DNA of 64,000 nucleotides. Source: a phage. The stretch is from assembly GCA_022897995.1 (NCBI GenBank), contig GCA_022897995.1_4763.1; one strand, written 5' to 3'. Numbering within the stretch: position 1 is the first letter of the stretch; each line of letters starts with the position of its first letter. Positions 23,599 through 27,391 of the stretch are shown here, piece by piece. A model generated the notes under the pieces. It had not been told where the DNA came from and made no database searches. It saw nothing but the letters and a program-made list of their open reading frames with translations. The position numbers and the translations under genes were made by a program.

Positions 23599-24800
23599 AT
23601 GTATTTTCTGTCATGTGAGCGAGTGGGTGATAAGATCTACGAGCGTTATATTGATGATGCTGGACAAGAACAAGAGCGTTACGTTGAATATACGCCAACT
23701 TTATTTCATCATGCCGCGCCTGGTATGGTTACGAATTATAAAGATATCTATGGCAAGCCTTGCATTGCTAAAAAATTCCCATCTATGAACGAGGCCAACA
23801 AATGGCGTAAAAAGATGGGAGAAATGGGGCAAGAGGCGCTAGGGATGGATGATTTTATCATCTCCTATCTGTCTGATACGTATAAAGGCGAGATTCGATA
23901 TGACCGAAATAAAATCCGTGTAGCATGGGTTGATATCGAGGTCACTGCCCCAGAATTTCCTAAACCAGAAGAAGCGAAATATCCTATCGATGCAATTACG
24001 CATTATGATTCCGTACATGATCGTTTCTTTGTATTTGACTTGAAAGGAAAAAACGGTGAAATCTGGGAAGTAAGCAAGTCTATTCTTCGACCTGATATTG
24101 TAGAGCGTGTTGTTTATAACGTCTATGACACAGAAGATGAATTGCTGTTAGAATACATCCGATTCTTTGAGGAAAACCGACCCGTTGGTTTCACTGGCTG
24201 GAACACAGAAACATTCGATATTCCATATATCATTAAACGTATCAGTAATAAGTTCGGAAGTAGAACCGCTAACCGTCTAAGCCCGTGCGGTAAGATTAAA
24301 TCCCGAATCTCGCAGGATGATTTTGGCAACGAGCGTGAAGCATTTACGATCATGGGGATCGAAAGCCTTGATTATATTGACCTGTACAAGAAATTTAGCT
24401 TTACGACTCAACCAACATATGCATTAGATTATGTTGCTGAATATGAGACAGGAATCGGTAAGGTTGATTATGATGGTCCGTTAAAGAAATTGCGTGATGA
24501 CAACCATCAACTTTACATCGATTATAACATCGGCGACGTTGATCGTGTGCTGGCGATTGATAAAAAGCGTGGATTTATCGATCTTGTGTATAGTCTATGT
24601 TTCTATGCAAAGATTAAATTTAACCATGTTTATAACCCGATGAAAGTATGGGATGCTATTATCTTCGGATCTCTGAAAGCTGAGGGTAAAGTAGTACCGG
24701 AAAATAAGATACAGCCTAAGCAGACTTATCCGGGCGCATTCGTAAAAGAACCTGTGCCGAATGCTTACCGTTGGATGATGAGCTTTGACCTTACTTCCCT
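23599..24800 (+). CDS. 43: DNA polymerase gp43 (family B), exon 1
   Basis: N-terminal and 3'-5' exonuclease region co-linear with T4/RB69 gp43; ends ...SFDLTSL in motif A; ATG 23599 after AAGGAG. Confidence 0.85.
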
Positions 24801-25914
24801 AAACTGATATGGGGCTTTCACTGGTGACAGTGATCGAATAACCTGCTTAATTGCTGGGAAATCTCTAAGGAGACAATCAGCAGCAGTTGCATTTTGAGCT
24901 AACGTGTCTTATAATGTATATAGATATTGATATACATTGGAGGCGCGAGATGAAAGACATTTTAAGAAAGTACGAAATACATAACGAGGAAGCATTAAAC
25001 GACTACATTAAACTGGTGTCTAATCCGTATCAGGGTGAAGAATATTCCGAGGTGCATCATATATGCCCGAAGTCAATGTTCCCGGAATATCGGTTAGATA
25101 AATGGAATCTTGTTAGGCTTAAGTTTGAAGACCACGTCGAGGCACATCGGTTATTGTGCTTAATATTCAATAACGGTGAATGCAAGAGAGCATATGCTTT
25201 CATCTCTAGAGGATCTTATGACGATAAAGTGAAGGCGTTAACCAAAGATGCATTCGCTGGAGACAATAACCCAGCCAAGCGAGAGGAAGTTAGACTGAAA
25301 ATATCCGAAAACAAGACCGGAAAAGCCAGAACCGATATGAGCGGAAAGAAATATTTCGGGGCTGATGAGGACACTATACGAAAAGGTCTTGATTCTATGG
25401 CAGAAAAGCTAAAGAATACTGTTATCGTTAAGGATAAGGAAGGAAATCGGTTTAGAGTTAGTTGTGATGATCCTAGATATGTTTCCGGTGAGTTGGTATC
25501 ATTTAATACTGGCGAGAAACGCGAAAATTCAGCGTCTAAACGACCGGAAGTTATGAGTAAAATAATGTCAAAACGTAATGAAACTTATGCTAAATTTGCA
25601 AGTTTCACATTTGATGAAATGGTGAATTTTCTTGTTGAAGCACACAATTCAGGAAAAGAGATTTTTGGTAAGAAGAAACCTTTTGCTAAGAATTATAGCG
25701 GATACTGTAAGAGAACACCGTTTGATCAAAATGAGCTTAAAGATGCAGTTGTTCAACGACTATCGAAAGGGTAACGAACCGAGTAGAGTAGAATCAAGCG
25801 ATTCGAAATGGCAGGATTCTCTATGAGAATGTGATATAGTCTGATCTACATGGTGACATGTAGCAGTTCGCAAGAGAACGGGCGCGGGAGTAGCGAACCG
25901 CGCTGAACATAATG
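24801..25914 (+). mobile_element. group I intron with internal HNH endonuclease ORF
   Basis: Exon U 24800 / intron 3' G 25914; P 24849-24861, Q 24875-24884, R 25751-25762, S 25833-25841 core-like blocks; splicing restores DLTSLYPSIIRQ. Confidence 0.7.
24950..25774 (+). CDS. intron-encoded HNH homing endonuclease with NUMOD3-like repeats
   Basis: EVHHICPKS...N...EDHVEAH HNH core; GDNNPAKREEVRLKISE NUMOD3-like; GGAGG 24939-24943 then ATG 24950. Confidence 0.8.
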   Translation: MKDILRKYEIHNEEALNDYIKLVSNPYQGEEYSEVHHICPKSMFPEYRLDKWNLVRLKFEDHVEAHRLLCLIFNNGECKRAYAFISRGSYDDKVKALTKDAFAGDNNPAKREEVRLKISENKTGKARTDMSGKKYFGADEDTIRKGLDSMAEKLKNTVIVKDKEGNRFRVSCDDPRYVSGELVSFNTGEKRENSASKRPEVMSKIMSKRNETYAKFASFTFDEMVNFLVEAHNSGKEIFGKKKPFAKNYSGYCKRTPFDQNELKDAVVQRLSKG

Positions 25915-27391
25915 GTATCCATCAATCATCCGTCAGGTTAACATTTCGCCGGAAACAATCGCCGGATCTTTTGATGCTGCACCGATGCACGAGTATATCA
26001 ATAAAACTGCACCACGTCCGAGTGATGAGTATTCTTGCTCGCCTAACGGATGGATGTATCGAAAAGATATTCATGGTATCGTACCGATTGAGATTAAAAA
26101 GGTATTCGATCAGCGTAAGCAGTACAAAAACATGATGTTGGCGTGTGATCGCAATGCTGAACTCTGTAAAGCGATTCTACACGATGAAAATCATGTTTAC
26201 GGGGGAACCATTAGCTATAGCGTTGAAGTTCGTCACGACTTCGATGAAGCGTTTAAATCTATGCTTTCGGAATTAAGCAAAGATGCCTTAGAGAAATTGC
26301 TGGAAGAATGTAAAGACGAGTCGATCTTGTGCAATACAAACCAGCTTTCTCGAAAAGTTTTGATCAACTCCCTTTATGGTGCGTTGGGGAATCCTAAATT
26401 CCGTTTTTATGATCTCCGTAACGCTAGTGCGATCACCTTGTTTGGTCAGCTTGCAATTCAGTGGATTGAGCGTAAGATTAACGAATACTTAAACGAGCTT
26501 TGCGGAACAACCGATTTTGCATATGTTCGTTATTGTGATACTGACTCCGTTTATGTGCTGGTTAACAATGTTGTTGATAAGGTTGGCGGGGAAGACCGTT
26601 TCGACGATACCGAAAAACTTGTTGACTTCCTTGATAATTTCGGTAAACATCGAATGGAACCTATTATCGACAAGGGATATCGCGAGTTATGCGAGTACAT
26701 GAACAACTATGAGCACTTGATGTTTATGGACCGCGAGGCAATTGCTGGTCCTCCGTTGAAATCTGCGGGTATCGGTGGATTCTGGACGGGTAAAAAACGC
26801 TATGCTCTTAATGTTTGGGATATGGAAGGAACGCGCTTTGCTGAGCCTAAGCTAAAAATCATGGGCTTGGAAACGCAACGTAGCTCCACCCCTAAAGCAT
26901 GTCAGAAATCACTGAAAGAATGTATTCGCCGTATGTTGCAGGAAGGTGAAGAGTCATTGCAGGAATATTACGGTATTTTTGAGCAAGAGTTTAGAAAACT
27001 TGACTATCTTGAGGTTGCTGCGGTATCATCTGCAAACAACCTACAGAAATACAGCGATTCAAACGGGTATCCGATTAAGGGTTGTCCGTATGCGGTTAAG
27101 AGTGTATTGTGCTATAATCGTAATGCTCGAAAATTCGGACTAGATCCGATTCGTGAGGGCGAGAAGGTTATGATTGTACCGCTTAAAGACCGAAATCCGT
27201 TTGGAGAAATCTGTTTTGGTTGGTTGTCCGGTACTCGTATTCCGCCAGAAATTGAATCAGAGGTGTTAAAGTGGTTGGACTGGCCTTTGTTGTTTAATAA
27301 GACTTTCGTCAAACCACTGGAGAACATTACCACGGCTGCAAAGCTGCAATATGAAAAGGTGGCATCGCTTACGGACCTGTTTGACATTTAA
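25915..27391 (+). CDS. 43: DNA polymerase gp43, exon 2 (palm/fingers/thumb)
   Basis: YPSIIRQVNISPET..., KILINSLYGALGN, YCDTDSVYV (motif C) in frame from 25916. Confidence 0.85.

What the first reader, a model, noticed from the sequence alone, without database searches (positions are those of the whole stretch)
24801..25914. Group I intron splitting the DNA polymerase (gene 43) inside catalytic motif A
The polymerase ORF stops after ...SFDLTSL (24800) and the conserved continuation YPSIIRQVNISPETIAG resumes in frame at 25916, 1114 nt later. Joining CT (24799-24800) to G (25915) recreates the Leu codon of the DxxSLYPS motif. The last exon base is U and the last intervening base is G; exon CCCU can pair with intron GGGG (24811-24814) as a P1. 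Blocks resembling the group I core are present: P AATTGCTGGGAAA (24849-24861), Q AATCAGCAGC (24875-24884), R GTTCAACGACTA (25751-25762), S GATATAGTC (25833-25841), with an HNH ORF filling the loop between Q and R. T4 has introns in td, nrdB and nrdD but not in gene 43; here nrdD is uninterrupted and the polymerase carries the element. Whether this exact insertion has been described I cannot tell without a database search.
Basis: partly seen in the sequence, partly recalled or inferred. Interest (0 to 1): 0.85.

Follow-up and report, generated by a model that had tools for sequence, protein, structure and literature searches.

The report
Mobile group I intron in gene 43
The DNA polymerase gene of this RB49-like coliphage is interrupted, inside its catalytic motif A, by a 1,114-base self-splicing-type (group I) intron that carries its own homing endonuclease gene. 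The element is real, but a truncated copy was already noted in phage JSE, so it is not a new kind of thing.

Summary
Window 24801-25914 is a 1,114-nt insertion relative to intron-less RB49 gene 43. Joining 24800 to 25915 gives an 892-aa protein that is 99.9% identical to RB49 gp43, with no gaps.

The insert has a complete group I (IA2-type) architecture: P1 with U·G, a 9-nt guide sequence pairing with both exons, P2-P9.2, P7.1/P7.2 and a terminal G. Rfam RF00028 hits it below its curated cut-off (33.9 + 13.2 bits). Natural relatives with a short or absent insert in the P6 loop pass it (75.8 and 58.6 bits). Covariation across relatives is strong: 31 of 62 pairs are compensatory and 96% of cells are paired.

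A 274-aa HNH-type endonuclease ORF sits in the P6 loop and runs into the ribozyme core. An 18-bp hairpin with a late-promoter-like box sequesters its ribosome binding site.

The same intron is present in about 14 of 64 Krischvirus records. It is linked to six synonymous exon changes that create the P1 partner. Related introns and endonucleases occupy the same site in polB of Ackermannviridae, Vibrio, Pectobacterium and metagenomic T4-like phages.

Petrov et al. 2010 flagged the truncated JSE copy as a putative intron. Splicing and homing remain untested.

The parts
23599..24800 (+). Gene 43 (PolB DNA polymerase) exon 1. It ends ...SFDLTS + CT, the first two bases of the Leu codon of motif A (DxxSLYPS).
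   Evidence: Pfam DNA_pol_B_exo1, E 2.5e-16. Collinear with the RB49 gene 43 start and sequence.
24801..25914 (+). Group I intron, 1,114 nt, IA2-type architecture, ending in G25914 (omega-G).
   Evidence: Exact insertion relative to RB49. RF00028 hits. Homologues pass the Rfam gathering score. Covariation.
25915..27391 (+). Gene 43 exon 2. It starts G|TAT CCA TCA (L-YPSIIRQVNISPETIAG...) and includes the stop codon.
   Evidence: Pfam DNA_pol_B, E 2.7e-22. In-frame continuation identical to RB49. There is no start codon in this frame before ATG 25985.
24797..24814 (+). P1 and the internal guide sequence. Exon CCCU (24797-24800) pairs with GGGG (24811-24814), with U24800·G24811 at the splice site. 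GAUAU (24806-24810) pairs with exon 2 GUAUC (25915-25919) as P10.
   Evidence: Read from the sequence. P1 is recovered in the MFE fold. P1 is 4/4 in all 14 same-site relatives, and P10 is 4-5 contiguous pairs in 9 of 14.
24818..24833 (+). P2 hairpin UCACUG-GUGA-CAGUGA (GNRA loop).
   Evidence: MFE. 4 of 6 pairs show compensatory changes.
24842..24847 (+). P3 5' strand CCUGCU, which pairs with GGCAGG at 25810-25815.
   Evidence: MFE. 6/6 canonical pairs in 14 of 14 relatives, with 2-5 pair types per position.
24851..24883 (+). P4 (24851-24857 with 24877-24883) enclosing P5 (UCUC 24862-24865 with GAGA 24870-24873).
   Evidence: RF00028 partial hit, model positions 60-96, 13.2 bits. P4 is invariant; P5 has 2 compensatory pairs.
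24887..24895 (+). P6 5' strand UUGCAUUUU, which pairs with AAGAUGCAG at 25740-25748 and closes the 844-nt loop holding the endonuclease gene.
   Evidence: MFE of the mini-intron and of the segment. An equivalent helix with different sequence occurs in every relative.
24903..24947 (+). 18-bp hairpin that sequesters the endonuclease Shine-Dalgarno GGAGG (24939-24943). Its apex holds a late-promoter-like box, TATAGATA, at 24919-24926.
   Evidence: dG -18.6 kcal/mol, z -4.9, 0 of 200 shuffles as stable. The box reads TATAAATA in 6 of 8 intron-bearing krischviruses and in several distant relatives. Analogous hairpins occur in LIMEstone1, allotria and VmeM-32.
24950..25774 (+). Intron-encoded homing endonuclease gene, 274 aa, HNH-type N-terminal domain plus NUMOD3-like and helical DNA-binding regions. 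The stop codon is included.
25751..25762 (+). GACUA 25758-25762 pairs with UAGUC 25837-25841. The same bases encode the endonuclease C-terminus VQRL.
   Evidence: Near-perfect match to the RF00028 consensus. P7 is invariant and 100% paired in relatives. The protein alignment ends ...VVQRLSKG.
25763..25804 (+). P7.1 (25763-25764/25786-25787 and 25770-25772/25778-25780) and P7.2 (GAAUC 25791-25795 with GAUUC 25800-25804). These extra helices are typical of subgroup IA.
   Evidence: MFE. P7.2 has 4 of 5 pairs compensatory, and the P7.1 pairs covary.
25810..25841 (+).
   Evidence: RF00028 alignment. P8 has 4 compensatory pairs.
25846..25914 (+). P9 (25846-25852 with 25857-25863, GUGA loop), P9.1 (25866-25869 with 25876-25879), P9.2 (25881-25887 with 25898-25904), and the 3' tail ending in omega-G 25914.
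   Evidence: MFE. Compensatory pairs: P9 4 of 6, P9.1 3 of 4, P9.2 4 of 7. The last intron base is G in 14 of 14 relatives.

Best explanation
Window 24801-25914 is a mobile group I intron (IA2-type) inserted after the second base of the Leu codon of polymerase motif A (SFDLTS-L|YPS) in gene 43 of an RB49-like coliphage (Krischvirus).

**Shown by the sequence analysis**
- The insertion is exact.
- The reading frame is restored when the exons are joined.
- The full set of group I helices is present, and they covary across relatives.
- The endonuclease ORF is intact.
- The intron is present in some and absent from other near-identical phages.
- Its presence is linked to a short synonymous patch of exon sequence.

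**Inferred mechanism: splicing**
1. The pre-mRNA folds so that the guide sequence GAUAUGGGG aligns exon 1 (CCCU, with a U·G wobble at the cleavage site) and exon 2 (GUAUC).
2. An external guanosine bound in P7 attacks after U24800.
3. The terminal G25914 then enters the same site and the exons are ligated. This gives an mRNA for a normal 892-aa gp43.

**Inferred mechanism: endonuclease expression**
- The 274-aa HNH-type endonuclease is encoded in the P6 loop.
- In the long early transcript its ribosome binding site is locked in an 18-bp hairpin, so the gene stays silent.
- Late transcripts would start at the TATA(A/G)ATA box in the hairpin apex. They would lack the 5' arm, which frees the site. 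This is the design known for T4 I-TevI/II/III.

**Inferred mechanism: homing**
- In mixed infections the enzyme cuts or nicks intron-less gene 43 near TTAACAAGTCT|GTA.
- Recombinational repair then copies in the intron together with about 11 to 30 nt of flanking exon. That patch includes the CCCU needed for P1.
For: **Insertion and frame**
- Exact 1,114-nt insertion relative to RB49.
- The spliced ORF is 99.9% identical to RB49 gp43 with no gaps.

**Match to the group I model (RF00028)**
- Window: 33.9 bits, E 1.3e-6 locally and 6.6e-5 window-wide, plus 13.2 bits for P4-P5.
- JSE copy with a 216-nt P6 loop: 42.9 bits over the full model, with P1 placed on the exon end.
- Natural ORF-less relative L046: 75.8 bits. 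PC3: 58.6 bits. Both are above the gathering score of 50.

**Secondary structure**
- The MFE fold of the mini-intron recovers P1-P6, P7.2, P8, P9, P9.1 and P9.2.
- The same helices fold independently in 7 divergent relatives.
- RNAalifold finds 31 of 65 pairs compensatory.
- For the named structure including the P7 pseudoknot, 96.1% of cells are paired, against 35-48% when partners are slid.
- In that structure 31 of 62 pairs change on both sides, against 2-6 when slid; 0 of 500 shuffles reach these values.
- In all 14 same-site introns exon 1 ends CCCU, the guide is GGGG, the last base is G, and P3 is 6/6 canonical.

**Mobility**
- About 14 of 64 Krischvirus records carry the insert.
- Across 2,709 exon positions in 8 intron-bearing and 6 intron-less genomes, only six sites are diagnostic. 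All six are synonymous and lie at -11 to -3.
- Host PolB proteins are 28-31% identical between lineages, while the intron cores are 59-74% identical.
- Six of six endonuclease homologues I looked up sit at the same place.

**Endonuclease**
- PHROG HNH family match, E 1e-130.
- Conserved H-H...N...H...H residues.

**Regulation**
- The hairpin has z -4.9.
- The TATAAATA box is conserved.
- The T4 precedent is described in PMC2988022.
Against: - No RNA or biochemical data exist, so splicing, cleavage and homing are all inferred.
- The window's own copy does not reach the Rfam gathering score. This is explained by the 844-nt loop insert, but the point still stands.
- P1 is only 4-5 bp.
- In this window the putative late promoter reads TATAGATA rather than TATAAATA. 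Endonuclease expression may therefore be reduced here.
- Contiguous P10 pairing is absent in the Ackermannviridae and nACB2 copies.
Confidence: 0.93

Rival explanations
1. A genuinely split polymerase gene (43A/43B type) with a free-standing endonuclease gene between the halves. There is no splicing, and two polypeptides assemble into the enzyme, as in Aeromonas phages 44RR and 25.
For: - Most of the GenBank records with this insert that I inspected annotate two 'DNA polymerase' CDSs plus a separate ORF.
- Split 43A/43B polymerases exist and are active (PMC2988022).
- Some metagenomic relatives (L143, L146, L149) are split further downstream as well.
Against: - The break falls inside DxxSL|YPS.
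- The downstream frame has a TAA at 25910-25912 and no ATG/GTG/TTG before 25985. Without splicing, 23 codons (YPSIIRQVNISPETIAGSFDAAP) would be lost, yet they are conserved in frame in every lineage.
- The known 43A/43B split lies about 95 codons downstream, and phage 25's 43A keeps DLTSLYP intact.
- The intervening sequence carries a covarying ribozyme core.
Confidence: 0.03
2. A decayed intron relic. The ribozyme still splices (it must, because gp43 is essential), but the endonuclease is no longer expressed or active. On this reading the element in this particular phage is immobile and is inherited only vertically.
For: - The putative late promoter carries A->G at 24923 (TATAGATA). JSE, whose endonuclease gene is already deleted, shares this change, whereas 6 of 8 other copies have TATAAATA.
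- Endonuclease loss is the expected fate of fixed homing elements. The JSE and PC3 copies show it.
Against: - The ORF is intact at 274 aa and 99.3-99.6% identical to the other full-length copies.
- All conserved catalytic-motif residues are present.
- A single promoter mismatch need not abolish late transcription.
Confidence: 0.15
3. An intein or another protein-level element: the insert is translated through and removed from the protein.
For: From memory, and not tested here: conserved PolB motifs are classic intein insertion sites in archaea.
Against: - The exon 1 frame hits TAA two codons into the insert (...SLN*).
- The endonuclease ORF has its own Shine-Dalgarno sequence and ATG.
- The flanks of the insert match an RNA model, not an intein.
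Confidence: 0

Closest known systems
Putative group I intron in gene 43 of coliphage JSE (Petrov et al. 2010, Virol J, PMC2993671; genome from Denou et al. 2009)
   Same: Same genus, same insertion point, same ribozyme. The non-ORF parts are 99.7% identical. It even shares the TATAGATA variant.
   Different: JSE has a 650-bp internal deletion that removes most of the endonuclease gene, leaving a 464-nt intron. The window carries the intact 274-aa ORF, which is the 'former HEG' that paper predicted. The paper calls the intron putative, and I found no splicing data.
[quoted passage not shown] 2012, PMC3296691)
   Same: Homologous endonuclease (35% aa identity) and homologous ribozyme core (72% nt identity). 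Same site...DLNSL|YPH, exon 1 ending CCCU, guide GGGG. Same hairpin-plus-late-promoter design.
   Different: The host is an Ackermannviridae phage whose PolB is about 28% identical to this one (measured on PC3). P7.1 and P8 are longer. There is no contiguous P10. Table 1 of that paper lists I-LimII as GIY-YIG, whereas the sequence carries an HNH-type motif and GenBank annotates it as HNH.
Self-splicing group IA2 intron in gene 43B of Aeromonas phage 25 (Petrov, Ratnayaka and Karam 2010, J Mol Biol; cited in PMC2993671 and PMC2988022)
   Same: A group I intron in the PolB gene of a T4-related phage. RF00028 scores it at 64.2 bits.
   Different: It lies in motif B (KILINSLYGAL|GN) of the 43B cistron, not in motif A. 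It has no ORF of its own; a free-standing seg-like endonuclease is thought to mobilise it. Its splicing was shown experimentally (statement from PMC2993671).
[quoted passage not shown]
   Same: Subgroup IA2-like architecture with P7.1/P7.2. The endonuclease ORF is looped out of a peripheral helix. The RBS-sequestering hairpin and late promoter are as described for the T4 intron endonucleases (PMC2988022).
   Different: Different host genes. I-TevI and I-TevII are GIY-YIG enzymes. The ORF here overlaps P6', J6/7 and P7 of the core.
HNH-endonuclease introns in other phage polymerase genes: I-HmuI/I-BasI in Bacillus phage DNA polymerase genes (cited in PMC2988022), and the PhiPA3 intron endonuclease gp210 (Birkholz et al. 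2024, Science, PMC11620839)
   Same: A group I intron plus an HNH-family endonuclease in an essential, conserved phage polymerase gene. This is a possible model for a role in competition between co-infecting phages.
   Different: Different polymerase families and sites. I found no detectable sequence match between this endonuclease and any PDB entry. Nicking versus double-strand cutting is unknown here.

Membership tests
Group I intron (Rfam RF00028) | Match to the covariance model at or above the curated gathering score (50 bits) | tested here: inconclusive
   - The window copy scores 33.9 bits (E 1.3e-6) plus a separate 13.2-bit P4-P5 hit, because an 844-nt insert splits the core.
- The JSE copy scores 42.9 bits over the full model.
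- Homologues with a short or absent insert pass: L046 at 75.8 bits and PC3 at 58.6 bits.
Group I intron (Rfam RF00028) | P1 formed by the 5' exon end and an internal guide sequence, with a U·G wobble at the splice site | tested here: met
   CCCU (24797-24800) pairs with GGGG (24811-24814), with U24800·G24811 at the splice site. This holds in 14 of 14 relatives. Intron-less alleles read GUCU and cannot form it.
Group I intron (Rfam RF00028) | Terminal guanosine (omega-G) and P10 pairing of the guide sequence with the 3' exon | tested here: met
   G25914 is the last intron base, as in 14 of 14 relatives. GAUAU (24806-24810) pairs with GUAUC (25915-25919). P10 covaries with exon 2 in 9 of 14 relatives and is not contiguous in 5.
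Group I intron (Rfam RF00028) | Conserved core P3-P8 with the P3/P7 pseudoknot and the J6/7, J8/7 and P7 guanosine-site sequences, supported by covariation | tested here: met
   GUUCAACGACUA and GAUAUAGUC match the model consensus. 96.1% of cells are paired, 31 of 62 pairs are compensatory, and slid and shuffled controls are far lower.
Group I intron (Rfam RF00028) | Self-splicing with a guanosine cofactor | not testable with these tools
   This needs in vitro transcription and GTP labelling, or RT-PCR. Indirect support: these phages grow as plaque-forming isolates with an essential gene interrupted (GenBank records).
Subgroup IA2 (Michel-Westhof classification; the T4 introns) | Extra helices P7.1 and P7.2 between P7 and P3', and P9.1/P9.2 extensions | tested here: met
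   P7.1, P7.2, P9.1 and P9.2 are predicted in every relative and covary. The assignment to IA2 itself rests on my knowledge of the classification, not on a subgroup-specific model.
HNH (beta-beta-alpha-metal) homing endonuclease | HNH catalytic motif and fold | tested here: inconclusive
   - For: PHROG 12434 'HNH endonuclease', E 1.3e-130.
- For: E34, H36, H37, H62 and H66 are invariant and N53 is nearly invariant across 43 homologues.
- Against: no Pfam HNH hit at threshold, with the best family member at HNH_4 E 0.084.
- Against: no NCBIfam hit, no PDB sequence hit and no Foldseek hit.
HNH (beta-beta-alpha-metal) homing endonuclease | Site-specific cleavage of the intron-less allele and intron homing | not testable with these tools
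   Only indirect signs are available. The intron is present in some and absent from other genomes that are over 97% identical. There is a six-site co-conversion-like exon patch. The same site is occupied in hosts whose PolB is 28-31% identical.
Split gene 43A/43B (Aeromonas phage 44RR/25 type) | Second cistron with its own start codon and RBS that encodes all remaining conserved residues | tested here: not met
   The first start codon in the exon 2 frame is ATG 25985, 23 codons after the break. The YPS half of motif A would be lost.
Intein | Uninterrupted reading frame through the insert | tested here: not met
   The exon 1 frame stops at TAA 24805-24807 (...SLN*).

The most novel reading that the evidence does not exclude
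This may be one member of a single, widely travelling intron-plus-HNH-endonuclease lineage dedicated to the (S/A)L|YP codons of PolB motif A.

- The lineage would move between phage families (Straboviridae of several genera, Ackermannviridae, metagenomic T4-like phages).
- It would carry a short synonymous 'exon patch' that supplies its own P1 partner.
- In mixed infections it would act as a weapon against intron-less competitors, as shown for the PhiPA3 intron endonuclease.

I found no systematic description of this cross-family, same-site lineage in the searchable literature.
Probability: 0.45. Interest if true: 0.45.

Novelty: already known. Interest (0 to 1): 0.3.

Why it matters
**Practical value: annotation**
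- Most GenBank records I inspected with this insert annotate gene 43 as two separate 'DNA polymerase' CDSs.
- They drop 23 codons of the catalytic motif and label the endonuclease 'hypothetical'.
- The exact splice junction given here lets the essential polymerase be annotated correctly.

**Biological value: modest**
- The window holds the intact-endonuclease progenitor of the truncated JSE intron.
- Its relatives show that one ribozyme/endonuclease lineage has colonised the same polymerase codons in phage families whose PolB proteins are only about 30% identical.
- The lineage brings along the few exon bases it needs for P1.

This makes a convenient natural system for studying homing, co-conversion and possible intron-mediated competition among therapeutic RB49-like coliphages. 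It does not open a new category.

Tried and rejected
- **Rfam at gathering threshold on the whole window: no hit.** This turned out to be a false negative caused by the 844-nt P6-loop insert. I resolved it with E-value mode and with short-loop homologues.
- **One MAFFT alignment of all seven mini-introns (A1).** It misaligned the exon 1 end and the Acinetobacter P7.1/P8 expansions, so I did not use it for pair counts. I used a five-sequence alignment (A2) and anchor-based counts instead.
- **My hand-made helix table.** It gave 99% pairing but is subjective; at least one entry, Vme P5, was not verified. I do not rely on it.
- **A possible pseudoknot between GUUCGC (25867-25872) and GCGAAC in the P9.2 loop.** Relatives instead support nested P9.1 and P9.2 hairpins, so I dropped it.
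- **Endonuclease classification.**
  - Pfam, NCBIfam and PDB sequence or profile searches found nothing at threshold.
  - Single-sequence AlphaFold gave an unusable model with pLDDT 42.7.
  - With a 43-sequence alignment the model is good, pLDDT 89.2.
- **The search for homologous proteins failed twice before working.**
- **Sigma-70 promoter scan of the region.** It found nothing relevant.
- **IMG/VR scan for the P4-P5 motif.** Most hits are other group I introns in other genes, and only two of the returned loci were same-site members.
- **Literature searches for 'Krischvirus' with 'intron', and for group I introns in Ackermannviridae polymerase genes.** Nothing specific turned up.
Full report
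**1. The observation**

The window comes from an RB49-like T4-type coliphage (genus Krischvirus). The gene 43 region is 97.6-98.6% identical to phages G2494, kvi, ECD7, MIZ4 and others.

- Exon 1 ends ...GAC CTT ACT TCC CT at 24800.
- The insert runs from A24801 to G25914.
- G25915 completes the Leu codon, and TAT CCA TCA (YPS) follows.

Alignment with intron-less RB49 gene 43 shows one clean 1,114-nt gap at exactly this place. Joining 23599-24800 to 25915-27391 gives a 2,679-nt ORF. Its 892-aa product is 99.9% identical to RB49 gp43 over its whole length, with no gaps.

**2. Is it a group I intron?**

*Match to the Rfam model.*
- Rfam's Intron_gpI model finds nothing at its curated cut-off in the window.
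- In E-value mode it is the only family of 4,227 with a match at E <= 0.01 anywhere in the 64 kb: 33.9 bits, 25603-25863. There is also a separate 13.2-bit match to P4-P5 at 24852-24882.
- The shortfall has a simple cause: 844 nt, holding an ORF, sit in the P6 loop and split the core.
- Phage JSE carries the same intron with a 650-bp deletion. Its copy aligns to the full model, with P1 on the exon end, at 42.9 bits, E 1.5e-9.
- Natural relatives with a short or absent insert pass the cut-off of 50 bits. An ORF-less 279-nt copy in an IMG/VR contig (L046) scores 75.8 bits, and the 465-nt copy in E. coli phage PC3 scores 58.6 bits.

*Helices in the window.*
- An MFE fold of the intron with the P6 loop replaced by GAAA recovers P1, P2, P3, P4, P5, P6, P7.2, P8, P9, P9.1 and P9.2.
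- P7 (GACUA 25758-25762 with UAGUC 25837-25841) is the expected pseudoknot partner. Its flanks match the model consensus almost perfectly.
The guide sequence 5'-GAUAUGGGG-3' (24806-24814) is complementary to the ligated exons CCCU|GUAUC over nine consecutive positions, giving both P1 and P10.

*Covariation.*
- I collected relatives at the same site (section 4) and folded each segment independently. The same helices appear with different sequences.
- RNAalifold on five divergent copies finds 65 pairs, 31 of them with compensatory changes.
- I also counted pairs for a named structure: P2, P3, P4, P5, P7 as a pseudoknot, P7.1, P7.2, P8, P9, P9.1 and P9.2.
- For that structure 96.1% of cells are paired, against 35-48% when the 3' partners are slid by 1-3 columns.
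- In the same count 31 of 62 pairs change on both sides, against 2-6 for the slid versions, and 0 of 500 shuffles reach the observed values.
- In all 14 same-site copies exon 1 ends CCCU, the guide is GGGG, the last intron base is G, and P3 is 6/6 canonical with 2-5 pair types per position.
- The P7.1/P7.2 and P9.1/P9.2 extensions are the architecture of subgroup IA2, the class of the T4 introns. That assignment rests on my knowledge of the classification.

**3. The ORF**

- Window 24950-25774 encodes 274 aa.
- Pfam and NCBIfam give nothing at threshold. PHROGs places it in family 12434 'HNH endonuclease' (E 1.3e-130) and family 655 'homing endonuclease'.
- Forty-three homologues exist in the large protein collection. 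E34, H36, H37, H62 and H66 are invariant and N53 is nearly invariant, which is an H-H...N...H...H pattern.
- An AlphaFold model built with that alignment is confident (pLDDT 89.2). It is an elongated multi-domain protein.
- The ORF does more than fill the loop. Its last codons (V-V-Q-R-L-S-K-G) are read from P6', J6/7 and the 5' strand of P7 (GTT CAA CGA CTA). That explains why this C-terminus is conserved in every homologue.

**4. Expression signals**

- An 18-bp hairpin (24903-24947; dG -18.6 kcal/mol, z -4.9) lies directly upstream of the ATG. It pairs the Shine-Dalgarno GGAGG (24939-24943) with 24903-24910.
- The hairpin apex holds TATAGATA (24919-24926).
- In 6 of 8 intron-bearing krischviruses this box reads TATAAATA, the T4-type late promoter consensus.
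- TATAAATA also precedes the endonuclease start in VmeM-32, POP12 and several metagenomic relatives.
- SD-sequestering hairpins are predicted in LIMEstone1, allotria and VmeM-32 as well.
[quoted passage not shown] Long early transcripts hide the ribosome site, and late transcripts that start inside the hairpin expose it (Edgell et al. 2010, PMC2988022). Here it is an inference.
- The window and JSE share the A->G change at 24923. It may weaken the promoter.

**5. Mobility and distribution**

*Within Krischvirus.*
- About 14 of 64 records carry the insert: 12 full-length copies and 2 JSE records. The rest are intron-less.
- I compared 8 intron-bearing and 6 intron-less genomes over 2,709 exon positions. 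The only sites that separate the two groups are six synonymous positions at -11, -9, -6, -5, -4 and -3: CTT ACT TCC CT versus TTA ACA AGT CT.
- These changes create the CCCU that pairs with the guide sequence. The intron-less GUCU could not.
- The 3' flank (+4 to +19) is also mostly linked to the intron. RB49 is the exception: it is intron-less but has the intron-type 3' flank.
- This is what co-conversion during homing would leave behind.

*Beyond the genus.* Homologous endonucleases and ribozyme cores sit at the same point, after the second base of the Leu codon of (S/A)L|YP, in:

| Host |
|---|
| Dickeya phage LIMEstone1 (I-LimII) |
| Salmonella kuttervirus allotria |
| E. coli Aglimvirinae phage PC3 (endonuclease relic) |
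| Acinetobacter Ackermannviridae phages nACB2 and SH-Ab 15599 |
| Vibrio phage vB_VmeM-32 |
| Pectobacterium phage POP12 |
| Metagenomic T4-like contigs |

- Six of six endonuclease homologues I looked up are in this position.
- The spliced PolB proteins of L046, PC3 and nACB2 are free of stop codons. They are only 28-31% identical to this gp43, whereas the intron cores are 59-74% identical. That points to transfer between phage families.
- L046 even shares the 14-nt exon flank GACCTTACTTCCCT with the window.

**6. Rivals**

- *Split 43A/43B gene without splicing.* This would cut DxxSL|YPS in two and leave 23 conserved codons with no start codon. There is a TAA at 25910-25912, and the first start is ATG 25985. 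The known 43A/43B break lies about 95 codons further on, and phage 25's 43A keeps DLTSLYP intact.
- *Intein.* Excluded by the stop codon two codons into the insert.
- *Decayed relic.* It remains possible that in this phage the endonuclease is poorly expressed, because of the promoter variant it shares with JSE.

**7. What is known**

- Petrov et al. [quoted passage not shown] The window holds the intact form of that element.
- Adriaenssens et al. 2012 (PMC3296691) named I-LimII as a putative intron in the LIMEstone1 polymerase gene.
- The only gene-43 intron shown to self-splice is in Aeromonas phage 25. It lies in motif B of 43B.
- I found no paper on splicing or homing of the motif A element, and none describing its cross-family spread. 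The searchable library is limited to open-access texts.

**8. Verdict**

It is a known kind of element, and this specific element has already been flagged in the literature.
- What this analysis adds: the exact splice junction, which most inspected GenBank records get wrong; the full secondary-structure model with covariation; the P1-creating exon patch; the conserved regulatory hairpin and late box; and the picture of a single lineage dedicated to motif A of PolB.
- Interest is low to moderate.

Noticed in passing
window 24919-24926 (A->G at 24923): The late-promoter-like box in the apex of the endonuclease RBS hairpin reads TATAGATA in this window and in JSE. ELT4 and JEP8 probably share it, since their 5' 149 nt are 100% identical. 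Six other intron-bearing krischviruses have TATAAATA. JSE is also the copy whose endonuclease gene is deleted, so this could be an early step of decay.
   Followed up: partly
L002 (RB49) around locus 1733-1760; window equivalent 25915-25936: RB49 lacks the intron and has the intron-less 5' flank (TTA ACA AGT). However, it carries the 3' flank typical of intron-bearing alleles (TAT CCA TCA ATC ATC CGT). The other five intron-less genomes read TAC/TAT CCA TCT ATT ATT CGA. This may be a footprint of intron loss or of partial co-conversion.
   Followed up: partly
L003, L004, L133-L135 (GenBank records of ECD7, JK32, kvi, Cognac, MIZ4 and others): Public annotations split gene 43 into two 'DNA polymerase' CDSs. 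The second starts at the ATG equivalent to window 25985, which drops 23 codons including the YPS half of motif A. None of these records annotates an intron. The endonuclease is variously labelled 'hypothetical', 'HNH endonuclease' or 'NUMOD3 motif family protein'.
   Followed up: yes
L143, L144, L146, L149 (metagenomic T4-like contigs): In these relatives the exon 2 reading frame stops after about 93 codons. This is the 43A/43B split point known from Aeromonas phages. Several small genes (one with a Macro domain in L143) lie before the DNA_pol_B part resumes. They therefore appear to combine a split polymerase with the motif A intron.
   Followed up: partly
L006 3911-4753 and L009 2959-3801; L007 1076-5807: LIMEstone1 and allotria have a second interruption of polB that carries I-LimIII on the opposite strand. 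The polB of Vibrio phage vB_VmeM-32 is annotated in at least six pieces. The polymerase gene seems to be a hotspot for several independent insertions.
   Followed up: no
window 25888-25897 (P9.2 loop GAGUAGCGAA) and 25772-25780 (UAACGAACC in P7.1): The 10-nt P9.2 loop keeps an A-N-CGA-N-C motif in all lineages (AGCGAAC, AGCGAGC, AACGACC, CACGAAC). A near-identical string sits in P7.1. This may be a tertiary contact, but I cannot explain it.
   Followed up: no
window 25740-25774: The last codons of the endonuclease (VVQRLSKG) are encoded by P6', J6/7 and the 5' strand of P7. One stretch of sequence is therefore constrained both as ribozyme core and as protein, and the C-terminus is conserved in all 43 homologues.
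   Followed up: partly
one search hits: phiKZ-like Pseudomonas phages (for example NC_004629 65445-65669) and Acinetobacter phage YMC13/03/R2096 (L011 1501-1688): The ribozyme core shares 75-80% identity over about 55% of its length with introns in unrelated genes of jumbo phages and other phages. Of 50,697 phage records, 774 have some match. The core belongs to a very widespread phage intron family.
   Followed up: no
PMC3296691, Table 1: The LIMEstone1 paper lists I-LimII as GIY-YIG and I-LimIII as HNH. The I-LimII sequence carries the H-H...N...H...H motif, and its GenBank record says HNH endonuclease. The table entries may be swapped.
   Followed up: partly
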